Positions 23,156 to 53,898 of a stretch of 64,000 nucleotides of DNA are shown here, one piece after another. How positions within the stretch are numbered: position 1 is the first letter of the stretch; each line of letters begins with the position of its first letter. The translations under genes and the position numbers were made by a program. This stretch comes from Spartobacteria bacterium (GTDB lineage: Bacteria; Verrucomicrobiota; Verrucomicrobiia; Chthoniobacterales; UBA6821), in assembly GCA_947482345.1 (NCBI GenBank), contig CANKJN010000003.1, positions 1,922 through 65,921 of the forward strand, given 5' to 3'. Under the pieces are notes generated by a model. It was not told where the DNA came from and did not search any database. It worked only from the letters and a program-made list of their open reading frames with translations.

Positions 23156-24024
23156 GTTCGGCGACACTCTTCAATTCCCTCGTTGACGAGGCACTCAAGT
23201 CGCGTCCCGAGTTAGCACTCCTGCGTCCCGTCGTGGAGAAGGAGTTGCTCCATCACGACATTCTTAGGGAGATGAGTCAGGAAGGACTGCTCTCCAGCCT
23301 CACCTTCATCGGCGGCACTTGTCTGAGAGCCTGCTATGGCTCTACGCGTCTCAGCGAGGATCTCGATTTTACCGGAGGGAACGATTTCAAGCGCTCCGAT
23401 CTCATGGAACTGGGGATGGTGCTCAGCGAAACTATCGGCACCCGCTACGGACTGAAAGTCAGCGTGAGCGATCCCGTCAGGACGGAAGGGAAGGTCAGCA
23501 CCTGGAAGATGAGTGTAGAGACCTGTCCTGGTCGCAAGGATCTTCCTGCACAGCGCATCCATCTCGATATCTGCGCCATCCCCAGTCACGACCCCCGCCC
23601 CATGATGTTGCGTACCCTCTATGGCGTCGATATGGGGACCTCCGGTCTCATCCTTCAAGCCCAGAGTAGGGAGGAGATCCTTGCAGACAAGGTGATAGCC
23701 TTGGCATTCCGCGAGGGGCGAATCAAGAACCGTGACCTCTGGGACATCGTCTGGCTCCAACAGCAGGGAGTGGAACTCCCCGTTCAACTGATCCCGCTCA
23801 AGATCCACGACCACCGCCGCTCCAAGGACGAGTTTCGATCACTCCTGCTGGAGAGGGTGGGGGAGTTGAGAAAGAGCGAGGCGCTTAGGAAAGACTTCAT
23901 CAAGGAGATGAGACGATTCCTTCCCGTGGCCACGGCGGCCCAGACCGTGGAACAGGAACCTTACTGGCGGTATTTGACTCAAGTTATTGGGGAGGAAGCG
24001 GAGAAGGCGCTGGCTATTCTCTAA
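23152..24024 (+). CDS. AbiEii/AbiGii-family nucleotidyltransferase toxin (DUF1814)
   Basis: 290 aa with the pol-beta NTase motif [22 protein letters not shown]. Confidence 0.8.
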
Positions 24025-24046
24025 GGAACCGCGGTTCCCTAACCCA

Positions 24047-24202
24047 ACCAAGGTCACCCGCAGCGCCCTGCAGAACGCCGCTTCCATCAGCGGACTCCTG
24101 CTCACCACCGAGGTCACCATCGCGGACGCTCCTGAGAAGGAGAAGGCCCCTGCGATGCCACCAGGTGGCGGAATGGGTGGAATGGGCGGAATGGACTACT
24201 AA
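24047..24202 (+). pseudogene. Duplicated groEL 3'-end fragment
   Basis: Encodes [51 protein letters not shown], nearly identical to the groEL C-terminus. The copy continues through a second terminator. Confidence 0.85.
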
Positions 24203-24233
24203 GTCCAAGCCTAGCCTAAAAAGCTCAACAGAG

Positions 24234-24267
24234 AGCCGGGTCAGCAATGACCCGGCTCTTTCTGTTT
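24234..24267 (+). terminator. Second copy of the groEL terminator
   Basis: Stem AGCCGGGTCA, loop GCAA, stem TGACCCGGCT, then CTTTCTGTTT. Confidence 0.7.
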
Positions 24268-24445
24268 CTAGGCTTGGAGGCTTGGGATTTTGGCGCAGGG
24301 CGTTGTTGCTGCTCGGTCAGCGTAGGTTCACTACGCTTTCCCTCGCGACGCCTAGCCCTGCATCCAAACTTCCAAGCCTCGACTGCAGTGGGGAAGGTCA
24401 GCAGTCTTTGGTGGCTTCGAGTTCGGTTAAAATCACGAAATCTTA

Positions 24446-24784
24446 TTAAACCCCTTGTTGTTTAAGGTTCCAATCAGTGAATCCAGAGATAACAGTCATA
24501 TCCTCAAAAAACTGATTTTCTGTGATTCCATCCAAAATTATCATTCTTCTTAATTCATGGAAAATTTTGTGGAATCTTGTGCTTTCATTAAGGCTGTTCC
24601 ATCCAGGAATATTTACACCATATTTATTTAAATAACCTTTGGATAGTTTAGGTATGTCGTTGATGAAATTCTCACATGCGAATATCTGAATAATTCCTCC
24701 ACCTTTCATTCCGCAAGAGTTTATGTGAGTTGCTTCAGACCAGCAAATCAGCGCAATTTTAGAATCAATAGAGTTTTTTAGCAT
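24446..24784 (-). CDS. Small hypothetical protein (112 aa) in the most AT-rich DNA of the window
   Basis: The ORF lies 76 bp downstream of the helicase gene and is co-directional with it. I recognise no motif. The coding call rests on length, context and shared atypical composition. Confidence 0.5.
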   Translation of the reverse strand: MLKNSIDSKIALICWSEATHINSCGMKGGGIIQIFACENFINDIPKLSKGYLNKYGVNIPGWNSLNESTRFHKIFHELRRMIILDGITENQFFEDMTVISGFTDWNLKQQGV

Positions 24785-24860
24785 TAAATCCGGAGTTTTA
24801 TTTCAATTGCGTTAGGTTTTGATATTTAAGTAAGGCCTAACTTATATTCGCGCAACGTTT

Positions 24861-27800
24861 TTATTTATCCCAAACGAATCCAATTTCAGTAAGGCGAGCC
24901 ACTTTATCAGCATCAAGAATTCCTTTGCGCTTTTTCTGACGCTGTTTCGTAGCCCAGTTTGCCAGGCCAATATTAGCCTTAAAGTGCCTTGGGACATTGC
25001 AATGTCCATATTCTGCTCTGAAATCAAGTATATCCCTGAATCGATCTTCCCAAGTATTTTGCGTCCCTTCTTTGCCCCAAGATACACCAAGAAAGGTCAG
25101 TTTTTCCTCATGAATCAGGGAAAGAGTCCCCTTGCGTTTTTTACTTCTTTGATCAGTAAGCCATGCACCAAGTGACGGGTTGTCCTTGAATCGAGCCGGA
25201 ACATCACAATGCCTGTGAAGTTTTTTAAAATCTCGAAGTTCTTCAAAACGCTTATTCCAGATTTCATTGCCGATTTCTGAATCTATTCGAGGAGAAACCC
25301 ATTCAAAGCAGATATCCGAAAGAAGCCTTTCGTAGTCTTGGTTGAGTAATCCTCTTGATTTCTTTGATCGTTGCGTTCCAACCCACCGTGCAAGAATAGG
25401 ATTTTCTGGATACTGGCTCGGCACATTGCAATGACCATAGAGCTTTTTAAAATCCAAGAGTTCCTGATAGCGATCCCACCATCGCTTATCGTGAGCGTCC
25501 CAAACGAATCCCGCGTCATTGAGCTTACTAACTTTTTCAGGATCTAAAGTGCCTTCTTTGAAGGATTTTCTTTGGTACATTATCCATATACCAAGTGATT
25601 GATTCTCAGGGTCTGTAGGAGAAGCATTTGTGTGCCCGGTTTTCTCTTTGAATCTCAAAAGTTCAAGGTATCGCTCTTCCCATCTGCACTGCTGCTCGCT
25701 CCAACGGAATCCTGCGTGATCGAGTAGGTTTTGTCTCTCAGCGTAAAGAAGCCCTCTTGTTTTTGCGCTCCTTTGGTTTTCAACCCATGAGCCAAGCATT
25801 GGGTATTCCGCACAGCCTTTTGGAACGTTCGTGTGACCATACTTAGCTTTGAATTGGAGGAGTTCTGCATAGTGCGTCTCCCACTTGGAGACTAAACCAT
25901 CTATGCACTGAGCCGCTACGGCTGACTCAATGTCATTTAGGTGTACATGAGGGCCTATAACCTCAACCAATTCGCCGAAGGGTCGATCAACAACTCCTTC
26001 CTCAAGAACAGAGTTAATCGCTGAGAGCCTGATGGTATCTGCCAGCACTTCATCCTGCTCCTGCATTGTTTGTAGAACATCCCAGATTTCATCGAAGTCC
26101 GCTCGGGCTACCGCCTCATCTAGGCTTTCGCCTGACTCAACCTCGACATAGAGAGGAACGAGAACATACCCGAGTTTCTTGCCGGGTGATTTTCGCATTG
26201 CTCGGCCTGTAGCCTGAACGATGTCTACCAGACTGCGTCTCGGTGAAAGAAACGCCACCATGTCGACCGCTGGGACATCGACTCCCTCGGTGAGGCATCG
26301 GGCATTGGACATTATACCACTGTCTGAGGCCCTGAAATCGCGCATGATCCGTTCTCGATGGGCGGTCGGCATCGCTCCGCTGACATGGAAAGTGCAAAAT
26401 TCTGGAAGATGAGTTCTCACTCCCTCGCTGGTATCCGCAACGAAGGAAGAGGCGGATGCCACCGTATTGTGAAAGGTAAAGATGCGGCGGACACCGTATT
26501 TATAAGCGGCATCACGGAGTGCAATCTGGTTAGCCACCTGCCTAGCCTGAATAGCATCGCCATCGATCAGAACCTGCCCTCTGCTGATCAGTTCATTTGT
26601 CACCATTTCGGAGGTGATGACCGAGATGACAACTTTGTAGCCGCAGATGATTTCGCGTTTGGCTGCTTGGCTGAAACTCAGTGTGTAGCAGCGCGTTCCG
26701 AATACCTCGGGGTTATCCATCGAATAGACCAGTTCCGCGTCACCTGATCTGTCCTTCTTTCTTGGATTGTGGTGCCGTGGAGTGGCCGTGACGAAGAGTC
26801 GCTTGGCGATGAGGATATTTGCGTCCTTCAGGGCGTAGGAGAGTTTGGATCCATCGCGGCCTGCGGTCTTGTGAGCCTCGTCGAAGATGCCGAGATCGAA
26901 GGATTCGTCCGGATGCATGGCCGCACCAACCACTGTTGCGGATTGGTAGGTACTGAAGACGATCTTGGTTCCCTTGAACGGGGCATCAAGGAAGCTGCGG
27001 ACGGTTTCGGGATTCGTGGAAACCTCGAAATCGAGGTCCGACTGGGCCGTGCTGATCGCATCGGCATCTCCTTTGACGGTGGGATCGGAGCAAACGCAGA
27101 GGTAGGCGAGTGATTTGAGACTCGTTTCCTTTAGCCACTCGTGGAGCGTCTGCCGAAGCAGGGCGAGCGAGGGAAGCAGGACGAGGATCTTTTGTGCGCC
27201 AAGCTGTTCCGCTGTCCAGAGGGTGACGAGGGTCTTACCCGTGCCACAGGCCATGATAGCGGTTGCACGACTTTCCTTTTGGAGTGTCGGAACGATGGCG
27301 GCCAGTGCCTCCTCCTGATGGGGAAGGGGAGTTTTCCTCGGGGTGCGGACTGTGGCCTCGGCAAGCCATGCCTCAATCGCAGCGAAGTCCGATGCCCCCA
27401 TCCGGTCTAGATCCGATCCCCTAATGCAGAAAAAGCCCTGTCGGTCGTTGATGACGGAGGGAAGTTCGTCGCAGTTGGTGATCAGGATGCGGCTTCGGAT
27501 GTGGGGGCTGTCGGCCAATCCCATGAAGGTCGATAGCTCACGCCAGGTCATCGGGTCCCGGCCCGTTCGGAATTTTACCTGATAAGCGCTCAGATCCCCA
27601 AGGAGCGTTTGAAGGACTCCATCGATGCCGTAATCCATCCCACCCAGCCCCAGCTTGCTCAGGATATCAAGCGGGGTGGCGTTCAGCGGCCAGACTTCTT
27701 TGGCATCATGCTTCCGCTGGGTGGCGAGATACGCCTCGGCAAAAACCTCGAAGGCATCGCCCTTTCCCTTGTTCTCCGGAATCGCCGTGATCCGTTTCTC

Positions 27801-27875
27801 CAGATCCGCAAACGACTTCACCCCGGCAAACAGCCCGGACTTGGCAATCTCTCGTGATTTCGTGTGCAGTGGCAT
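24861..27875 (-). CDS. Mrr-like PD-(D/E)xK nuclease domain + SF2 (DEAH) helicase + five C-terminal helicase-associated (HA) repeats
   Basis: The N-terminus has GDAFE...DYGIDGV...YQVKF. Helicase motifs are ACGTGKT (I), FDEAHKTAG (II), TATP (III), LTEGVDVP (V) and QATGRAMR (VI). Five ~65-aa repeats follow, of the form W..(R/H)(Y/F).EL..FK...GH.NVP......LG.W...QR. The ATG at 27875 is preferred over the TTG at 27902. Confidence 0.85.
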   Translation of the reverse strand: MPLHTKSREIAKSGLFAGVKSFADLEKRITAIPENKGKGDAFEVFAEAYLATQRKHDAKEVWPLNATPLDILSKLGLGGMDYGIDGVLQTLLGDLSAYQVKFRTGRDPMTWRELSTFMGLADSPHIRSRILITNCDELPSVINDRQGFFCIRGSDLDRMGASDFAAIEAWLAEATVRTPRKTPLPHQEEALAAIVPTLQKESRATAIMACGTGKTLVTLWTAEQLGAQKILVLLPSLALLRQTLHEWLKETSLKSLAYLCVCSDPTVKGDADAISTAQSDLDFEVSTNPETVRSFLDAPFKGTKIVFSTYQSATVVGAAMHPDESFDLGIFDEAHKTAGRDGSKLSYALKDANILIAKRLFVTATPRHHNPRKKDRSGDAELVYSMDNPEVFGTRCYTLSFSQAAKREIICGYKVVISVITSEMVTNELISRGQVLIDGDAIQARQVANQIALRDAAYKYGVRRIFTFHNTVASASSFVADTSEGVRTHLPEFCTFHVSGAMPTAHRERIMRDFRASDSGIMSNARCLTEGVDVPAVDMVAFLSPRRSLVDIVQATGRAMRKSPGKKLGYVLVPLYVEVESGESLDEAVARADFDEIWDVLQTMQEQDEVLADTIRLSAINSVLEEGVVDRPFGELVEVIGPHVHLNDIESAVAAQCIDGLVSKWETHYAELLQFKAKYGHTNVPKGCAEYPMLGSWVENQRSAKTRGLLYAERQNLLDHAGFRWSEQQCRWEERYLELLRFKEKTGHTNASPTDPENQSLGIWIMYQRKSFKEGTLDPEKVSKLNDAGFVWDAHDKRWWDRYQELLDFKKLYGHCNVPSQYPENPILARWVGTQRSKKSRGLLNQDYERLLSDICFEWVSPRIDSEIGNEIWNKRFEELRDFKKLHRHCDVPARFKDNPSLGAWLTDQRSKKRKGTLSLIHEEKLTFLGVSWGKEGTQNTWEDRFRDILDFRAEYGHCNVPRHFKANIGLANWATKQRQKKRKGILDADKVARLTEIGFVWDK

Positions 27876-28029
27876 AGGGGATGTCGGAGTGTAGGACAAC
27901 AAGCATCCCCCTCCAAGCCTTCAAAGCTCCTAAAGGGGGATGAGTATCCATGGACTGTAGGGACATTTCACCATTGGCGCTTTTTTTCCGCACAATGAAG
28001 GCTAGATTGATACAAGTCACTACGGAGCC

Positions 28030-49433: not shown

Positions 49434-49805
49434 TCAGAAGAGAATCTTGCTGACGTAGAGGAGGACGAAACTCGCCAAGAGTATGAAGATCGCCCCAGTG
49501 AGCAGGACGCTGCGGATTCCATAGGTTTCCTGGGTTTCGCTCTTGATGAGTCGCGTCGTCGTAGTGAAACGCCACGTTGAGAGGATCATGATGAGCAGAC
49601 CCAAAGCGACGAGGACGATCCCCGCCTCCCTGCCCAGCGGAGATGTCATCTGGAATTTTCCATCTGTCATGGATCGTGCAAAGGCCCTGACCACGAGATC
49701 AAAGCGTTCGAGGAGGAATCCGAAGGCGATCAGTGCCAGCGATGTGCGCATCCATGCGAGATAGGTACGCTCATTGGCTGCGAGGTCGTTGTAGCGTGGA
49801 ATCAT
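49434..49805 (-). CDS. YidH/DUF202-family membrane protein
   Basis: LAANERTYLAWMRTSLALIAFGF motif and three TM segments. Confidence 0.75.
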   Translation of the reverse strand: MIPRYNDLAANERTYLAWMRTSLALIAFGFLLERFDLVVRAFARSMTDGKFQMTSPLGREAGIVLVALGLLIMILSTWRFTTTTRLIKSETQETYGIRSVLLTGAIFILLASFVLLYVSKILF

Positions 49806-50119
49806 ATTTTCTCAGTGATAGTTCCCGACATCTATCCTGTCGATACCCGGCGGGTTGATTCTTGCACGCCTGACGCGCCATCAAGACTTCCACGCAATCG
49901 GTCGCTCCTCACTGTAGTGAGGAGGATCTAAGCGAAAGCGCTAGGGCTATTCCCTGTCGCGGCTGAGAAGGTGGGATTAGAGCTAGTTTATGGAAGCGGA
50001 CGTTCTGCAGGAAGGAGTTACGAAAACCGTCGATGAGTTCGGCAGCGGTTCCCTCGAGGAATATTCGAATACTCCCCAAACGAATAATGAATAGCGAACA
50101 ACGAATAAGGAATGAAGCC

Positions 50120-51931
50120 ATGACCAAAGCGACATCCAAAGCGAAGCCGAACCCCAAGGCGGGATTCGTGGCGAGATCCGTTACTGCCTCAAAAACAAAA
50201 CCGAGGCCGCAACTTCCCAAAACTCCCACCGGTATCCGGGGATTCGATGAGATCACTGGAGGGGGGCTTCCGACCGGGCGGCCCACTCTGGTCTGTGGTG
50301 GAGCGGGGTGTGGCAAGACGGTCTTTGGAATCGCATTTCTGGTGAATGGGGTGACCCATTTTGGCGAGCCGGGTGTCCTGATGTCGTTCCAGGAGAGTGC
50401 AATGGAACTGACCGATAATGTGGCCTCGTTCGGTTACGACCTGCAGGATCTGATCCGGCGCAAGAAGCTGGTGATTGACTGTGTTTGTATTGAGCGCAGC
50501 GAGATCGAAGAGGCCGGCAACTACGATCTGGAAGGCCTCTTCATCCGCCTAGGCCATGCCATCGACTCGATCGGTGCCAAGCGAGTGGTGCTCGACAGTA
50601 TCGAATCACTCTTCGGCGCCCTGCCCAACCAGTCGATCCTTCGTGCCGAAATCAGCCGTCTGTTTCGCTGGCTCAAGGCAAAAGGTGTCACCGCTGTCAT
50701 TACCGGTGAACCCGGAATCGAAATGCTGACTCGGCAGGGGCTTGAGGAGTATGTCAGTGACTGCGTCATCAAGCTTGATCAACGGATCGCGGATCAGGTC
50801 GCCTCGCGCCGTCTGCGCGTGGTCAAGTACCGGGGCTCGGATCACGGCACCAACGAGTACCCTTTCCTGATCGATGAGAGCGGTCTCATCGTGCTGCCGA
50901 TCACCTCGGTCACTCTTGAGCACAACGTTTCGATCGAACGCGTCTCTTCCGGTGTGCCGCGTCTGGATGCCATGATCGGAGGCAAGGGTTATTACAAGGG
51001 GAGCAGCGTGCTGGTCTCGGGCACGGCCGGCACCGGCAAGAGCAGCCTGGCCGCGCACTTTGTCGATGCGGCCTGTCGCAGGGGCGATCGCGCCATCTAT
51101 TTTACCTTTGAGGAGCCGGCCAAGCAGATCATCCGCAACATGCGCTCCATCGGGATCGACCTACAGCACTGGGTGAAGAAGGGGTTGTTGGAATTTCACG
51201 CCACACGCCCGAGTACACACGGCCTGGAAAAGCACCTGCTCCTGATGGAAAGCGCCATTAATGACTTCATACCCAAGGTGGTGTCGGTCGATCCCCTGAA
51301 CAGTTTCCTCATGGGTGGCAATCAGCTCGAGGTGAAGGGAATGATGATGCGCCTGGTGAATTTCATGAAGACACGCGGGATCACCAGTGTGTTTACCAGT
51401 CTGACCTCGGGCGGTGCGCCGATCGAGCGGACCGACATCGCGATCTCCTCCCTGATCGACACCTGGATCCTGCTGCGCGATACCGATTATGGCGGGGAGC
51501 GTAACCGCACGCTGTACGTGCTGAAGTCGCGCGGAATGCCGCACTCGAACCAGATTCGTGAGTTTCTGTTGACAGACAAGGGTATCAAATTGAGCGATGT
51601 CTATGTCGGCGCGGCCGGCGTGCTGACCGGGACGGCACGGTTGAATCAGGAGGCCATCGATGCCGCCGCGAAATTGCTGCGCGAGCAGGAAGTGAAGCGG
51701 GGCCGCGACGAACTCGAAGGGAAGCACCGGATCATGGAAGCGCAGATCGCCGCCATGCGCGCCGAGTTTGCCGTGCAGGAACTGGCCAGCAAGAAAGTCA
51801 CCGATGTGCAACAGGCCATCGAGATGATGGCAACCAAGCAGCGTCAACAGATGTCGCGTGCCCGAGGAGCTGATATCACCCCCCCCCCCGGATTTCACGC
51901 CGTGACAACCGAAGTGAATCCAAATGAATAG
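50120..51931 (+). CDS. kaiC: KaiC-family double-domain RecA-like ATPase with a C-terminal coiled-coil extension
   Basis: Two Walker A motifs (GGAGCGKT, GTAGTGKS). The GIRGFDEITGGGLP entry motif and the CII region DIAISSLIDTWILLR (Ser-Ser at the phospho-site position) are present. About 100 aa of heptad-like tail follow CII. The ATG at 50120 follows a low-complexity leader. Confidence 0.85.
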   Translation: MTKATSKAKPNPKAGFVARSVTASKTKPRPQLPKTPTGIRGFDEITGGGLPTGRPTLVCGGAGCGKTVFGIAFLVNGVTHFGEPGVLMSFQESAMELTDNVASFGYDLQDLIRRKKLVIDCVCIERSEIEEAGNYDLEGLFIRLGHAIDSIGAKRVVLDSIESLFGALPNQSILRAEISRLFRWLKAKGVTAVITGEPGIEMLTRQGLEEYVSDCVIKLDQRIADQVASRRLRVVKYRGSDHGTNEYPFLIDESGLIVLPITSVTLEHNVSIERVSSGVPRLDAMIGGKGYYKGSSVLVSGTAGTGKSSLAAHFVDAACRRGDRAIYFTFEEPAKQIIRNMRSIGIDLQHWVKKGLLEFHATRPSTHGLEKHLLLMESAINDFIPKVVSVDPLNSFLMGGNQLEVKGMMMRLVNFMKTRGITSVFTSLTSGGAPIERTDIAISSLIDTWILLRDTDYGGERNRTLYVLKSRGMPHSNQIREFLLTDKGIKLSDVYVGAAGVLTGTARLNQEAIDAAAKLLREQEVKRGRDELEGKHRIMEAQIAAMRAEFAVQELASKKVTDVQQAIEMMATKQRQQMSRARGADITPPPGFHAVTTEVNPNE

Positions 51932-52622
51932 GAAAGCTGTAGCGCACAACATCAAGGCGGCGAACGGCAAAGCAGGCCCTGATTTCTTTTCGCTGAGGCT
52001 GTATGTCGTCGGAGAGACGCCGAAGTCGCAAGCGGCCATTGCCAATCTGGAGAAGATTTGCGGGGAGTATCTTGCCGGGCACCATCAGATCGAAGTCATT
52101 GATCTGCTGAAAAATCCGCAACTCGCGCTGGATCATCAGATCGTGGCGATCCCGACGCTTGTCATCGAGCAACCGCTTCCGGTGCGCAGGATCATCGGCG
52201 ATCTCTCCGATACCGACCGGGTGCTGATCGCCCTTGGCTTGAGGGAGCTCCCGCCACGCGCGATAAGAACACTGCCGAACTTTTACGAATGGAACTATTA
52301 CACGCGTTCCAGTGACCTCGTACCATGCGAGGCCATCGGATTCACGGGCTCAAACCTTGGTCTGGTTCAAAGTCTCCCGGAAATCGCGGGTAGCAACGAG
52401 AAGCTTGTCATGAAGGATTGGGAAGTGACGATTCCAGAGGGAAAGATATCGCCCGCTCAGATCCTGAGACGCGGTGATTACCTGGTCTGGGATGGGACCG
52501 CCTTGAGAGTCTGGGGGGATCAGGACTTCAAAGAGAACTTTCAGCCAATGAAGCCTCCGTCCTCACTTCAAGCTGGAACACCCAGGAATCTCAGGGTGAT
52601 AACGCTCCCGAATCCCCAGTGA
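51924..52622 (+). CDS. kaiB: KaiB-domain protein fused to a ~125-aa C-terminal domain of unknown function
   Basis: The N-terminal thioredoxin-like KaiB signature is LRLYVVGETPKSQAAIANLEKIC...IEVIDLLKNPQLALDHQIVAIPTLV. The remainder has no motif I recognise. 8-nt overlap with kaiC. Confidence 0.75.
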   Translation: MNRKAVAHNIKAANGKAGPDFFSLRLYVVGETPKSQAAIANLEKICGEYLAGHHQIEVIDLLKNPQLALDHQIVAIPTLVIEQPLPVRRIIGDLSDTDRVLIALGLRELPPRAIRTLPNFYEWNYYTRSSDLVPCEAIGFTGSNLGLVQSLPEIAGSNEKLVMKDWEVTIPEGKISPAQILRRGDYLVWDGTALRVWGDQDFKENFQPMKPPSSLQAGTPRNLRVITLPNPQ

Positions 52623-53456
52623 TCAGGATTGGATCGAGTCAATCGTCGGGAGGCGGTGTCTGCGTTCTCCAAGCCGGGGGATGCAGGCGATGAGGGCCTT
52701 GGTGTAGGGATGCTGGGGATTGCGGAGGATCTGGTCGGTCTCCCCATACTCGACGACCTCGCCCCGGTACATCACGGCCACATGGCGGGCGAGACCGCGG
52801 ATGATGGCGAAATTGTGGGTGATCAGGAGCACCGCCATGCCGAGGTCGCGCTGGAGTTCCCGAAGCTTGTCGAGGATCTGCTTCTGGATCGTGACATCGA
52901 GCGCCGTGGTCGGTTCATCGGCGATCAGAAGGTCAGGACGCGCCGAAAGAGCCATGGCGATCATCACGCGCTGCTGCATGCCGCCGCTGAGTTGGTGGGG
53001 GTAGTCGTGGAGTCTCGAAGCCGGATCGACGATCCCGACGGCATCAAGCCAGCGGATGATCTCGGAATCGATGTCGGTCACGTCGGGCCGGTGGAGACGA
53101 ATCATCTCCGCGATCTGGCTGCGAATCGTGTAGACGGGGTTGAGCGAGGTGGAGGGCTCCTGGAAGATGTAGGCGATCTTCCCCCCGCGAACCTCGCGAA
53201 GCTCCGCATCCGAGGCCTTCAGAAGGTCCTTCCCTTCAAAGAGGATCTCACCGCCCTGATAGACGGCGGGAGGTGTGGGTAGAAGTTGCGAGATCGCGAG
53301 CGCGGTCACGCTCTTGCCGCTGCCGCTCTCACCGACGATCGCAAGGGTTTCGCCTTTGCCAAGCTCAAGGGAAACTCCCTTGAGGGCCGGGGTGATGGTC
53401 TCGCCCGAGCGGAAAGCGATTTTGAGGTTGCGGATGGAGAGCATGGGAAAAGGCAA
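52623..53456 (-). CDS. Peptide/nickel ABC transporter ATP-binding protein (DppD/OppD-like)
   Basis: Walker A GESGSGKS, signature [12 protein letters not shown], Walker [13 protein letters not shown] and the OppD-type C-terminal extension. Confidence 0.85.
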
Positions 53457-53471
53457 ATTATGAAGGATGAA

Positions 53472-53852
53472 TTATGAAGTATGAAGGGCAGAGGCCTTGG
53501 TCTTCTTGGAAATGGTCGTGAGGATTGCGATGAGCTGATCGCACTCATGATAGAGATCCTTCAATTTCCGAGAGCTGACGATATCAGATTCAACGAGCAA
53601 CTCGAGCCAGTAGGCGGTTTCATCAAGCTCCTTGATGCAAACTCCGATGATGGAGATGAACTCTGCTTTGGACCTGGAGCGCTTGGCTTCGCGGAAATTG
53701 GCTCCAACTGATGTTCCTGATCTCAGAGCCTGCTTTCCCAATACTTGGGCCTGCGTGTTCTTGGGAAGGGAACAGTAAAGCCTGATCATCCGAAGGGCGA
53801 ACTCCTTCGTCCTTGCGGAAAGCTCAACAGGGGGTGTTTTTTCATTTTTCAT
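53472..53852 (-). CDS. Four-helix-bundle protein (23S rRNA intervening-sequence protein family, TIGR02436-like)
   Basis: Motifs FALRMIRLY...LGKQALRSGTSVGANFREA...EF...KELDETAYWLELL. Start chosen at MKNEK (53852). Confidence 0.8.
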   Translation of the reverse strand: MKNEKTPPVELSARTKEFALRMIRLYCSLPKNTQAQVLGKQALRSGTSVGANFREAKRSRSKAEFISIIGVCIKELDETAYWLELLVESDIVSSRKLKDLYHECDQLIAILTTISKKTKASALHTS

Positions 53853-53898
53853 TCTGCATTTTTCCTTTCCTTCATCCCTCATAACTCATCCTTCATCA

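What the first reader, a model, noticed from the sequence alone, without database searches (positions are those of the whole stretch)
50120..52622. KaiC with a coiled-coil tail followed by a KaiB fused to an unknown ~125-aa domain; no kaiA or adjacent kinase
The gene order is kaiC then kaiB, with an 8-nt overlap. KaiC has both Walker A motifs, a Ser-Ser pair at the phospho-site position (ISSLIDTW) and a ~100-aa heptad-rich C-terminal extension of the kind reported for KaiA-independent proteobacterial KaiBC hourglass timers.

The KaiB domain is extended by a C-terminal region (from about ...RELPPRAIRTLPNFYEW to the end) that I cannot assign to any family. No histidine kinase or response regulator follows; the next gene converges from the opposite strand. 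The fused domain could therefore be the output or effector. KaiC-like ATPases are also components of some stress and defence modules, so the function is open.
Basis: partly seen in the sequence, partly recalled or inferred. Interest (0 to 1): 0.55.

Follow-up and report, generated by a model that had tools for sequence, protein, structure and literature searches.

The report
KaiC–KaiB timer with fused extra domain
A freshwater Verrucomicrobia bacterium carries a two-gene KaiC–KaiB "hourglass" timer of a known type, but its KaiB is permanently fused to a small, conserved domain of unknown function that sits where related bacteria encode the signalling kinase, which gives a possible handle on how such timers pass on their signal.

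Summary
kaiC (50120-51931) and a 232-aa kaiB fusion (51924-52622) overlap by 8 nt.

**KaiC.** It is a close homologue of the Rhodobacter sphaeroides KaiA-independent KaiC (PDB 8DBA). The alignment includes the Ser-Ser phosphosite and the coiled-coil extension.

**The fusion is real.** The exact protein occurs on at least 24 independent contigs. Relatives at 73-91% identity keep one reading frame. The tail is under purifying selection (dN/dS 0.04-0.26).

**The tail is not an orphan.**
- It is a folded, beta-rich domain of about 105 aa (AF2 pLDDT 75-93) followed by a conserved 22-aa peptide.
- It belongs to an unnamed family that also has about 20 clusters of stand-alone bacterial proteins (94-155 aa).
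- It probably includes small phage proteins (phrog_6363-like).
- It has no Pfam family and no PDB relative.

**Distribution and context.** The fusion is confined to one narrow Chthoniobacterales-related clade, found in 2 of 185,579 species genomes. In nearest non-fused relatives, kaiB is followed by a PAS-HisKA_3 hybrid kinase. Here no kinase or response regulator was found in the 64-kb window. Some stand-alone tail relatives sit beside HisKA_3/GerE pairs and CsbD genes.

**Verdict.** This is a new variant of a known kind. I favour a KaiB-tethered output adaptor, but that role is inferred only. The fused clade also has Gln at the first CI catalytic glutamate.

The parts
50120..51931 (+). kaiC, 603 aa (an in-frame ATG at 50033 would give 632 aa). 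It is an R. sphaeroides/KaiC2-type double-domain KaiC.
   Evidence: ORF. (PF06745 twice, 3.9e-108). (NF006799, 713 bits against a cutoff of 408). (8DBA, 652 bits, aligned over aa 33-584). Gene callers use 50120.
50390..50395 (+). CI catalytic pair, read as Gln91-Glu92 ('SFQES') instead of Glu-Glu.
   Evidence: The window and L011 have Q-E. The non-fused relative L024 ('AFEET') and R. sphaeroides ('TFEER', E62/E63) have E-E. The double E->Q mutant abolishes CI ATPase and KaiB binding (PMC5007536, PMC10076222).
51446..51451 (+). Ser443-Ser444, the predicted phosphorylation pair in CII.
   Evidence: 'aisslidtw' aligns with 'GLSSLMDGW' of 8DBA and with the S413E/S414E mutant 8FWI.
51629..51931 (+). 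KaiC C-terminal extension (aa 504-603), homologous to the coiled-coil tail that builds the R. sphaeroides KaiC dodecamer. It contains an 11-C homopolymer at 51879-51889.
   Evidence: contiguous alignment to 8DBA residues about 476-556. (26/80 identical). (paper). (poly-C invariant in 5 assemblies).
51924..51931 (+). 8-nt overlap ATGAATAG between the kaiC stop and the kaiB start (translational coupling). The sister species L011 has a 4-nt ATGA overlap.
51924..52622 (+). kaiB fusion gene, 232 aa.
   Evidence: The exact protein is on at least 24 contigs, including NCBI MAG GCA_947464195.1.
51993..52238 (+). KaiB domain (aa 24-105).
   Evidence: PF07689, 81.6 bits against a cutoff of 27. (best PDB hit is KaiB of R. 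sphaeroides, 8FWJ_M, 100.6 bits, aligned 24-105 to 7-88).
52266..52553 (+). Folded core of the fused C-terminal domain (protein aa 115-210). It is beta-rich, with family-invariant W123, Y126, N144, L187 and F202.
   Evidence: AF2 with a 25-sequence family alignment; pLDDT 75-93 over this stretch, pTM 0.68. (conservation). (dN/dS 0.04-0.25). (family).
52554..52619 (+). C-terminal peptide KPPSSLQAGTPRNLRVITLPNPQ. It is predicted disordered but conserved within the fused clade ('NLRVITLP' is invariant, with single substitutions in some clade members). It is absent from stand-alone relatives and is a candidate docking motif.
   Evidence: conservation. (pLDDT <50). (dN/dS 0.13-0.22).
49434..49805 (-). 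DUF202 (YidH-like) small membrane-protein gene. It stays next to the kai module in three species despite different flanks and one change of side. It is a possible, unproven associate.
   Evidence: PF02656. (L011 has a different upstream flank but the same DUF202-kaiC-kaiB block). (in L004 the DUF202 homologue is convergent downstream of the kaiB fusion).

Best explanation
This is a KaiA-independent KaiC-KaiB 'hourglass' or energy-state timer of the Rhodobacter sphaeroides type.

**Core mechanism (by homology to the characterised system).**
- KaiC forms hexamers joined through the C-terminal coiled coil.
- It autophosphorylates on the Ser-Ser pair without KaiA.
- KaiB binds the CI ring in the post-hydrolysis/ADP state and speeds dephosphorylation.

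**What is special here.** KaiB is covalently extended by a folded domain of about 105 aa plus a conserved 22-aa peptide. The operon lacks the PAS-HisKA_3 hybrid histidine kinase that directly follows kaiB in its nearest relatives and in purple bacteria.

**Favoured reading (inferred).** The fused domain is a protein-interaction or output adaptor.
- Because it rides on KaiB, up to six copies per CI ring (twelve per dodecamer) would be clustered on, or released from, KaiC according to KaiC's nucleotide and phosphorylation state.
- This would couple the timer to a partner encoded elsewhere, possibly a HisKA_3-type kinase or a general-stress pathway.

**Confidence by step.**
- Identity of KaiC and KaiB, and the reality and selection of the fusion: about 0.9.
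- The R. sphaeroides-like biochemical cycle, inferred by homology: about 0.6.
- The adaptor/output role of the tail, inferred from gene context only: about 0.35.
For: **KaiC and KaiB identity**
- KaiC scores 652 bits against 8DBA, through the coiled coil and the SS site.
- KaiB matches the KaiB of R. sphaeroides best.
- The mechanism of that system is described in PMC10076222.

**The fusion is real and under selection**
- The exact protein is on at least 24 contigs from independent assemblies.
- Relatives in L011, L012 and L004 keep one frame.
- Tail dN/dS is 0.04-0.26, at or below that of the KaiB domain.
- The AF2 core is confident.

**The kinase is missing where relatives have it**
- Nearest non-fused KaiBs are followed by PAS-HisKA_3-HATPase-REC kinases. 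In L024/L025 the overlap with kaiB is 4 nt; L026 has the same arrangement.
- The kaiC-kaiB-PAS/HK operon is described for R. palustris and R. sphaeroides (PMC4794148).
- No kinase or response regulator was found in the window or in L011's different flank.

**Context of stand-alone tail relatives**
- They lie within 0.3-1 kb of a HisKA_3 kinase plus GerE regulator in about five lineages, and next to CsbD in about five.

**Domain character**
- Family-conserved residues are mostly aromatic or hydrophobic (W, Y, F, L), with no catalytic-looking triad. That fits a binding domain.
Against: - No direct evidence exists for any partner of the tail.
- The HisKA_3/CsbD association holds for only part of one stand-alone subfamily. 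Those genomes are probably related to one another, so shared ancestry could explain it. Other lineages (L013/L037, L033-35, L019, L022) show neither neighbour.
- The fused clade has Gln at the first CI catalytic glutamate. That could lower CI ATPase activity and alter KaiB binding, so the R. sphaeroides cycle may not transfer unchanged.
- The structure of the full-length fusion, and its geometry on KaiC, could not be modelled.
- The rest of the genome was not searched for an orphan PAS-HisKA_3 kinase.
Confidence: 0.4

Rival explanations
1. The tail is an input or regulatory module rather than an output. It sits immediately after the KaiB segment that changes secondary structure when KaiB fold-switches. 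It could bind a ligand or dock back on KaiB, biasing the fold switch or the affinity for the KaiC CI ring, and so set the timing or the threshold of the hourglass.
For: - The tail begins directly after 'DRVLIALGL', the last KaiB element, with only a 10-15-aa Pro-containing linker.
- Conserved aromatic residues could form a small pocket.
- The clade-specific change in CI (Q91) suggests that the KaiB-KaiC interface or cycle has co-evolved.
- KaiB fold switching is established knowledge for this family (PMC10076222).
Against: - No ligand-binding family or fold was recognised. There is no PAS, GAF or similar match in the PDB.
- Stand-alone family members exist without any KaiB to regulate.
- This idea does not explain the loss of the operon kinase.
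Confidence: 0.25
2. The tail is a functionally independent small (stress-related or phage-derived) protein that became fused to kaiB by loss of a stop codon. The fusion provides co-expression only, with no mechanistic coupling to the timer.
For: - The family exists mainly as stand-alone 94-155-aa proteins in varied contexts not linked to kai genes.
- The fusion is restricted to one narrow clade.
- One related population carries only a 3' remnant of the tail, so the module is dispensable there.
Against: - The fusion persists across at least 25% amino-acid divergence and three gene arrangements, with strong purifying selection on the tail, the linker and the extra C-terminal peptide.
- No relative was found with kaiB and a separate adjacent tail gene, which would be the expected intermediate.
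- The 120 closest KaiB clusters are all single-domain.
Confidence: 0.15
3. The module is not a timer at all. It is a KaiC-like ATPase stress-resistance or anti-phage system in which the phage-related tail domain acts as a sensor or effector.
For: - The tail fold resembles many small phage proteins, and Truckee gp63 shares its motifs.
- KaiC homologues improve stress resistance in non-photosynthetic bacteria (preprint 10.1101/2022.01.26.477890, listed; not read).
- There is a weak partial PADLOC hit of KaiC to mad8.
- One stand-alone relative lies beside a reverse transcriptase and PLD-like genes.
Against: - KaiC passes the KaiC equivalog model, and its closest solved relative is a biochemically characterised hourglass KaiC.
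- The mad8 hit covers only the P-loop region, and no PADLOC hit exists for the fusion or its relatives.
- The neighbours are housekeeping genes (glycine cleavage, Opp, tig-clpPX), not a defence island.
- The tail is not found in IMG/VR.
Confidence: 0.08
4. The fusion is an artefact: a sequencing frameshift or a misassembly joining kaiB to a separate ORF.
For: - An 11-C homopolymer lies nearby, but it is inside kaiC, not at the KaiB-tail junction.
- Some contigs of relatives are truncated or chimeric at their ends.
Against: - An identical 232-aa ORF occurs in at least 24 contigs from independent samples and assemblers, including an NCBI MAG.
- The same single frame is kept in species at 91%, 91% and 75% identity.
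- Six fused protein clusters are in the database.
- Purifying selection runs across the junction.
Confidence: 0.01

Closest known systems
Rhodobacter sphaeroides KaiBC hourglass timer (Pitsawong et al. 2023, PMC10076222; PDB 8DBA, 8FWI, 8FWJ)
   Same: - Gene order is kaiC then kaiB, with no kaiA.
- KaiC aligns end to end (652 bits), including the Ser-Ser phosphosite and the coiled-coil extension of about 80 aa.
- The KaiB domain's best match among solved structures is KaiB of R. sphaeroides.
   Different: - KaiB here is 232 aa, not 92. It has an extra folded domain and a conserved C-terminal peptide.
- CI has Gln-Glu instead of Glu-Glu at the catalytic pair.
- No PAS/HK gene follows.
- The host is a non-photosynthetic freshwater Verrucomicrobiota lineage, not a purple alphaproteobacterium.
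kaiC-kaiB-PAS/histidine-kinase operon of Rhodopseudomonas palustris and R. sphaeroides (Ma et al. 2016, PMC4794148), and the same layout in the nearest metagenomic relatives (L024-L026)
   Same: A kaiC-kaiB pair with translational coupling, and the same KaiC2-like KaiC.
   Different: - The third gene, a PAS-HisKA_3-HATPase-REC hybrid kinase, is absent.
- In its place KaiB carries the fused domain.
- That domain is not a remnant of the kinase (hhalign probability <0.1%).
SasA (cyanobacterial clock-output kinase with an N-terminal KaiB-like domain)
   Same: The concept is shared: a KaiB-fold domain that docks on KaiC CI is covalently linked to a downstream signalling module. This is established knowledge. 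There is only a weak 19.6-bit hit to NF006800.
   Different: - The fused module here has no HisKA or HATPase domain and no resemblance to kinases.
- The KaiB moiety is a true KaiB next to kaiC, not a SasA-type paralogue.
Elongated cyanobacterial KaiB (about 250 aa; Schmelling et al. 2017, PMC5520375)
   Same: A KaiB of roughly double length with an extension that matches no known domain.
   Different: - The cyanobacterial extension is N-terminal, about 150 aa, and confined to Cyanobacteria.
- The extension here is C-terminal, occurs in Verrucomicrobiota, and belongs to a different family with stand-alone members.
Unnamed family of small proteins: about 20 bacterial stand-alone clusters (94-155 aa) and phage proteins such as Arthrobacter phage Truckee gp63 (phrog_6363, function unknown)
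   Same: - Shared motifs: W-x2-Y-x-R, A-[IV]-x-F-T-G-x-N, and G-[DE]-[YW]-L-x-W...F-x3-F.
- Profile E-values are 1e-15 to 1e-42 for the bacterial members.
- BFVD Foldseek gives probability 1.0 and TM up to 0.76.
- gp63 carries both C-terminal motifs.
   Different: - All of these are single-domain proteins not linked to kai genes.
- None has the fused clade's C-terminal 'PRNLRVITLP' peptide.
- The phage relationship rests on predicted structure plus a 15-bit profile match.

Membership tests
KaiC (R. sphaeroides/KaiC2-type, coiled-coil extended) | Two tandem RecA-like KaiC domains; the whole protein passes a curated KaiC model. | tested here: met
   PF06745 matches in two stretches at 3.9e-108. 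NF006799 scores 713 bits against a cutoff of 408. The cyanobacterial model TIGR02655 is not reached (352 against 546), as expected for a non-cyanobacterial KaiC.
KaiC (R. sphaeroides/KaiC2-type, coiled-coil extended) | Walker A in both CI and CII. | tested here: met
   GGAGCGKT (CI) and GTAGTGKS (CII) are present in the translation.
KaiC (R. sphaeroides/KaiC2-type, coiled-coil extended) | Catalytic Glu-Glu pair in CI and in CII. | tested here: not met
   CII has 'FEEP' (met). CI has 'FQES', with Gln at the first position, in both the window and L011. L024, R. sphaeroides and S. elongatus have E-E. The functional consequence is unknown.
KaiC (R. sphaeroides/KaiC2-type, coiled-coil extended) | Ser-Ser phosphorylation pair in CII (the KaiC2 signature). 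| tested here: met
   S443/S444 align with S413/S414 of 8DBA/8FWI. The KaiC2 definition is in PMC10076222.
KaiC (R. sphaeroides/KaiC2-type, coiled-coil extended) | C-terminal extension of at least about 50 aa that is homologous to the coiled-coil tail. | tested here: met
   Residues 504-584 align contiguously with the 8DBA coil, with 26/80 identical. A direct heptad test was uninformative.
KaiC (R. sphaeroides/KaiC2-type, coiled-coil extended) | KaiA-independent autophosphorylation; dodecamer formation. | not testable with these tools
   This needs biochemistry or structure determination.
KaiB (PF07689) | KaiB domain above the Pfam gathering score, encoded next to kaiC. | tested here: met
   81.6 bits against a cutoff of 27, over aa 25-104. 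There is an 8-nt overlap with kaiC. The cyanobacterial equivalog cutoffs are not reached (82.5 against 110; 78.2 against 145).
KaiB (PF07689) | Single-domain architecture of about 90-130 aa. | tested here: not met
   The protein is 232 aa with a second folded domain. All 120 closest KaiB clusters are 95-129 aa.
KaiB (PF07689) | Fold switching, and binding to the KaiC CI ring in the ADP state. | not testable with these tools
   Inferred only from 100-bit similarity to KaiB of R. sphaeroides in complex 8FWJ.
kaiC-kaiB-PAS/HK operon (purple bacteria and nearest relatives) | A PAS-containing histidine kinase gene immediately downstream of kaiB. | tested here: not met
   The downstream gene is a convergent ABC ATPase. 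No kinase was found in the window. The kinase is present in L024-L026 and in the literature.
SasA-like KaiB-domain/kinase fusion | HisKA and HATPase_c domains C-terminal to the KaiB-like domain. | tested here: not met
   The tail has no Pfam hit at E<=10. It has no PDB fold match and no similarity to HisKA_3 kinases.
Elongated cyanobacterial KaiB | N-terminal extension of about 150 aa, restricted to Cyanobacteria. | tested here: not met
   The extension here is C-terminal and the organism is Verrucomicrobiota.
Unnamed tail-domain family (stand-alone bacterial proteins) | Conserved motifs across an approximately 90-aa core, with significant profile matches. | tested here: met
   HMMER against 1.84 billion representatives: P0005/6/7/9/10 at 1.4e-13 to 4.4e-04. 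Profile search: 28 clusters. Invariant W18, Y21, N39, L82 and F97.
phrog_6363-like small phage proteins | Homology to the phage family. | tested here: inconclusive
   Foldseek against BFVD gives probability 1.0, E 1e-4 to 1e-2 and target TM 0.6-0.76. Truckee gp63 shares two motifs but scores only 15 bits. No PHROG is significant for the tail family itself.
Known anti-phage defence systems (PADLOC) | Significant match of the components to a defence-system model set. | tested here: not met
   There is only a partial P-loop match of KaiC to mad8 (5.5e-11, 90 of 314 positions). Nothing matches the fusion or the stand-alone relatives.

The most novel reading that the evidence does not exclude
The fused domain is a new kind of clock-output device. 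It would be a phage-related protein-binding module tethered to KaiB that takes the place of the operon-encoded PAS-HisKA_3 kinase. KaiC's nucleotide and phosphorylation state would then be read out by state-dependent clustering or release of six to twelve copies of this domain, with its conserved C-terminal docking peptide, on the CI rings. Stand-alone family members would play the same adaptor role for HisKA_3/GerE stress-response kinases. The accompanying natural E-to-Q change in the CI active site would be a co-adaptation that slows CI turnover and lengthens the KaiB-bound state.
Probability: 0.2. Interest if true: 0.7.

Novelty: new variant of a known kind. Interest (0 to 1): 0.45.

Why it matters
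How KaiBC timers outside cyanobacteria pass their state on to the cell is essentially unknown. The adjacent PAS kinase is only presumed to be the output.

**Why this fusion is useful.** A natural, strongly conserved fusion tethers an extra domain to KaiB in an operon that has lost that kinase. This works as a 'Rosetta-stone' pointer to a partner domain. It offers a simple experimental system of two proteins with one detachable domain, in which input and output roles can be tested.

**A family worth naming.** The work also defines a previously unnamed small-protein family with stand-alone bacterial and probable phage members and no solved structure.

**A natural active-site variant.** The fused clade has a Gln at a catalytic glutamate of the CI ATPase, the step that gates KaiB binding in the studied systems.

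**Limits.** The fusion is confined to one narrow clade of uncultured Verrucomicrobiota, and the function of the domain is still only inferred.

Tried and rejected
1. **Frameshift or misassembly.** Rejected. An identical ORF occurs on at least 24 contigs, and a single frame is kept in three diverged relatives.
2. **Tail as a remnant of the N-terminal PAS region of the lost kinase.** Rejected. hhalign probability is <0.1% against both neighbouring-type kinases. Foldseek finds no PAS domain in the PDB.
3. **USP-like deubiquitinase fold.** USP1 residues about 677-771 are the top PDB hit by both Foldseek (E 0.77) and sequence profile (E 0.47). Neither is significant, and no Cys/His/Asp triad is conserved in the family. 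Rejected.
4. **Defence system.** PADLOC is negative apart from a partial P-loop hit. IMG/VR is negative. Plasmids are negative.
5. **Single-sequence AF2 of the full fusion.** The model was unusable (pLDDT 34). The full-length geometry is therefore unknown.
6. **Heptad-periodicity test of the KaiC tail.** It has no discriminating power, because the solved R. sphaeroides coil fails it as well.
7. **Poly-C tract as a phase-variation or frameshift site.** It is invariant in five assemblies and absent in the sister species. It is not upstream of a fusable frame, because a TGA lies at 51915-51917 in the kaiB frame.
8. **Metagenome locus scan with the whole-family alignment.** It failed because the alignment is too diverse. 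It was repeated with the 133-aa subfamily only, so the context statistics are biased to that subfamily.
10. **An oddity in the KaiB-domain survey.** The survey did not list the fused clade itself among its top 120. The conclusion drawn is only that the nearest non-fused KaiBs are single-domain.

Full report
**1. Observation**

- The window has two co-directional ORFs: 50033/50120-51931 and 51924-52622. They overlap by the 8 nt ATGAATAG.
- The first ORF is KaiC.
  - Pfam finds two PF06745 domains.
  - NCBIfam's KaiC equivalog NF006799 scores 713 bits against a cutoff of 408.
- The second ORF (232 aa) has a KaiB domain only at residues 24-105. Residues 106-232 match no Pfam family even at E<=10.
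- The next gene is a convergent Opp/Dpp-type ABC ATPase whose stop codon abuts the kaiB stop.

**2. KaiC**

- Against the PDB, the best matches are the Rhodobacter sphaeroides KaiC structures 8DBA, 8FWI and 8DB3 (652 bits). The alignment runs from residue 33 to 584. It passes through 'AISSLIDTW', whose Ser443/Ser444 align with the S413/S414 phosphosites, and through about 80 residues of the C-terminal extension.
- Pitsawong et al. 2023 (PMC10076222) showed the following for that protein:
  - The extension forms a 12-helix coiled-coil bundle joining two hexamers.
  - It keeps the A-loop exposed and allows KaiA-independent autophosphorylation.
  - KaiB binds CI in the post-hydrolysis state, raises ATPase activity and promotes dephosphorylation when ATP/ADP falls. 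This makes an hourglass, not a free-running clock.
- The window's KaiC belongs to that KaiC2-like clade. A crude hydrophobic-periodicity test on the extension was uninformative, because the solved R. sphaeroides coil fails it too. The coiled-coil call therefore rests on homology (26/80 identical, contiguous alignment).
- One difference was not anticipated. The first of the two CI catalytic glutamates is Gln ('SFQES').
  - This holds in the window and in the 81%-identical KaiC of a sister species (L011).
  - A non-fused relative (L024, 'AFEET'), R. sphaeroides ('TFEER', E62/E63) and S. elongatus (E77/E78) all have Glu-Glu.
  - Published work used double E->Q mutants, which lose CI ATPase activity and KaiB binding (PMC5007536, PMC3863973, PMC10076222).
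  - The effect of a single substitution is not known, so I report it as an observation only.

**3. The fusion is real and selected**

- The exact 232-aa protein is encoded on at least 24 contigs from independent samples and assemblers, including NCBI MAG GCA_947464195.1.
- Two GTDB species representatives carry it at 91% identity. One is a Verrucomicrobiia MAG (JBEIJN01) and one a Chthoniobacterales MAG (JBAPTI01).
- A 75%-identical relative (L004) also has the KaiB domain and the tail in one frame.
- Nei-Gojobori dN/dS for the tail is 0.07, 0.12 and 0.26 in the three comparisons. The core gives 0.04-0.25, against 0.21-0.24 for the KaiB domain.
- Six fused protein clusters (226-232 aa) exist in the 5.8-billion-protein collection, all at least 81% identical in the tail.
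- Only 2 of 185,579 species genomes have the tail. It is absent from IMG/VR and PLSDB.
- The fusion is therefore genuine but confined to one narrow Verrucomicrobiota clade from freshwater and soil metagenomes.
- One related population (L001-L003) retains only the last 86 codons of the tail next to the opp operon, so the module has been lost there.

**4. What the tail is**

- A word-indexed search found only near-identical sequences.
- A full HMMER scan of 1.84 billion representatives with a tail profile found small stand-alone proteins at about 30-40% identity. Two further repeat-protein hits were spurious.
- A profile search then gave 28 clusters. About 20 are stand-alone proteins of 94-155 aa with no Pfam domain.
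- The alignment (A3) shows invariant W18, Y21, N39, L82 and F97 in tail numbering. These correspond to protein residues W123, Y126, N144, L187 and F202.
- It also shows the motifs W-N-x-Y-x-R, A-[IV]-x-F-T-G-x-N and G-[DE]-[YW]-L-x-W-D-G.
- With this alignment, AlphaFold2 gives a confident beta-rich core.
  - pLDDT is 75-93 over tail residues 10-105, and pTM is 0.68.
  - It has about seven strands and three short helices.
  - The last 22 residues are low-confidence. They are nevertheless conserved within the fused clade ('NLRVITLP' is invariant, with single substitutions in some members) and absent from stand-alone members.
- Foldseek finds nothing in the PDB (best E 0.77).
- Foldseek does find many small uncharacterised phage proteins in BFVD (probability 1.0, target TM up to 0.76).
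- tblastn against phage genomes gave weak hits in the same phage groups.
- Arthrobacter phage Truckee gp63 (98 aa) carries both the 'A-x-Q-F-T-G' and the 'G-D-W-I-V...F-x3-F-x-P' motifs. It belongs to phrog_6363, of unknown function, and to no Pfam family.
- The tail is thus a member of an unnamed, structurally unsolved small-domain family. Its conserved residues look like those of a binding module rather than an enzyme.

**5. Context**

- Within +/-10 kb the neighbours are housekeeping genes. Upstream lie larC, speA, gcvT/H/P and a divergent DUF202 gene. Downstream lie a convergent opp operon interrupted by a 23S-IVP gene, then tig, clpP, clpX, trmB and an ECF sigma factor.
- Pfam on 20 of the window's larger ORFs, together with phmmer using HisKA_3 kinases and GerE regulators against all ORFs >=60 aa, found no kinase, no regulator and no second kai gene.
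- The sister species L011 has a completely different upstream flank (rplM ... acs). It keeps the DUF202-kaiC-kaiB block and also has no kinase.
- In L004 the DUF202 homologue lies on the other side, convergent with the kaiB fusion. DUF202 is therefore the only persistently adjacent gene.
- By contrast, the closest non-fused KaiBs (57-70% identity, all 95-129 aa) are followed directly by a PAS-HisKA_3-HATPase-REC hybrid kinase. In L024/L025 the overlap is 4 nt, and L026 has the same arrangement.
- This matches the kaiC-kaiB-PAS/HK operon described for R. palustris and R. sphaeroides (PMC4794148).
- The tail is not a remnant of that kinase (hhalign probability <0.1%).

**6. Context of stand-alone relatives**

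- None is next to kai genes.
- In the 133-aa subfamily there is a recurring arrangement: tail, small ORF, HisKA_3 kinase (with RsbU_N), GerE regulator, or its divergent form. It occurs in about five lineages (L015/16/27, L029, L030, L023/28). In L017/18/36 the kinase pair lies at 5.4 kb.
- CsbD-like genes are adjacent or close in about five lineages (the same calls).
- Other lineages have neither.
- Because these genomes are probably related to one another, this is suggestive rather than demonstrative.

**7. Interpretation**

- Shown: an R. sphaeroides-type KaiC-KaiB pair; a genuine, selected KaiB-domain fusion; absence of the operon kinase; and family membership of the tail.
- Inferred by homology: KaiA-independent autophosphorylation on S443/S444, and KaiB docking on CI in the ADP state.
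- Inferred from context only: the tail is a KaiB-tethered adaptor or output element.
  - It would be clustered on, or released from, the CI rings according to KaiC state, and would link the timer to a partner encoded elsewhere.
  - HisKA_3 kinases or general-stress components are the only candidates suggested by the data.
- Rivals, each given with its tests in the rival section:
  - a regulatory or input role acting on KaiB fold switching;
  - a passenger fusion with no coupling;
  - a non-timer stress or defence role.

**8. Novelty and score**

- The KaiC part is already known biology.
- A C-terminal domain fusion on KaiB was not found in the literature searched. Only N-terminally elongated cyanobacterial KaiBs are described there.
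- The fused domain's family is unnamed.
- I rate this as a new variant of a known kind, with interest 0.45. It is a useful, testable handle on KaiBC output, tempered by a very narrow distribution and an unproven function.

Noticed in passing
window 24279-24375 (+); also L011:7039-7127 and L033:2874-2967: A conserved intergenic element of about 90 nt. It is 87% identical in the sister Verrucomicrobiia MAG, where it lies about 90 nt upstream of the DUF202 gene beside kaiC. It is 75-78% identical in an unrelated peat-metagenome contig. RNAalifold predicts a 37-pair structure with 6 compensatory pairs from only three sequences. There is no Rfam match at gathering score and none better than E=0.13 in a sensitive scan (E<=1). 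It is a candidate unannotated structured small RNA.
   Followed up: partly
window 50390-50395 (KaiC Q91-E92): The first CI catalytic glutamate is Gln in the fused-KaiB clade (window and L011). It is Glu in a non-fused relative, in R. sphaeroides and in S. elongatus. This may be co-adaptation with the fused KaiB.
   Followed up: partly
window 51879-51889: A homopolymer of 11 C residues inside the 3' end of kaiC, encoding T-P-P-P-G. It is identical in five independent assemblies and absent in the sister species, so there is no sign of length variation.
   Followed up: yes
window 52620-52625: The stop codons of the kaiB fusion (+) and of the convergent ABC ATPase gene (-) form the palindrome TGATCA with zero intergenic bases. 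There is no room for a terminator between the convergent genes, and none was detected.
   Followed up: no
L001:1-382, L002, L003: A related population (about 90% nucleotide identity) keeps only the last 86 codons of the tail next to the opp operon. All three contigs end within 170 nt of the junction, which suggests a deletion or insertion variant, or a repeat boundary.
   Followed up: partly
window 49434-49805 (-); L011:7197-7574; L004:769-1095: A DUF202/YidH-like membrane-protein gene stays adjacent to the kai module in three species. Two have different upstream flanks, and in L004 it lies on the opposite side of the module. It could be a functional associate or a marker of block transfer.
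   Followed up: partly
window 53472-53882 (-): A '23S rRNA intervening-sequence protein' (PF05635) gene is inserted between the ATPase and the permease genes of the opp/dpp operon. It is conserved there in all relatives.
   Followed up: no
window 24861-27902 (-), within the low-GC stretch 24001-26000 (GC 0.45 against about 0.60): A 1013-aa helicase (ResIII/Helicase_C) with five C-terminal HA (helicase-associated) repeats lies in the only markedly low-GC part of the window. It may be horizontally acquired.
   Followed up: no
L022:52-6396 and L019:5260-7381: The short (106-126-aa) stand-alone tail relatives follow PLD-like (PLDc_2) genes. In L022 they lie in a cluster with a 984-aa reverse transcriptase and a metallophosphatase. 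This context differs from that of the 133-aa subfamily and looks like a mobile or defence island.
   Followed up: no
L004:1-20: The start of this metagenome contig translates to the 'MCIRDR/DVYKRQ' signature of a Nextera adapter. It is an assembly artefact at the contig end and does not affect the kaiB fusion frame.
   Followed up: yes
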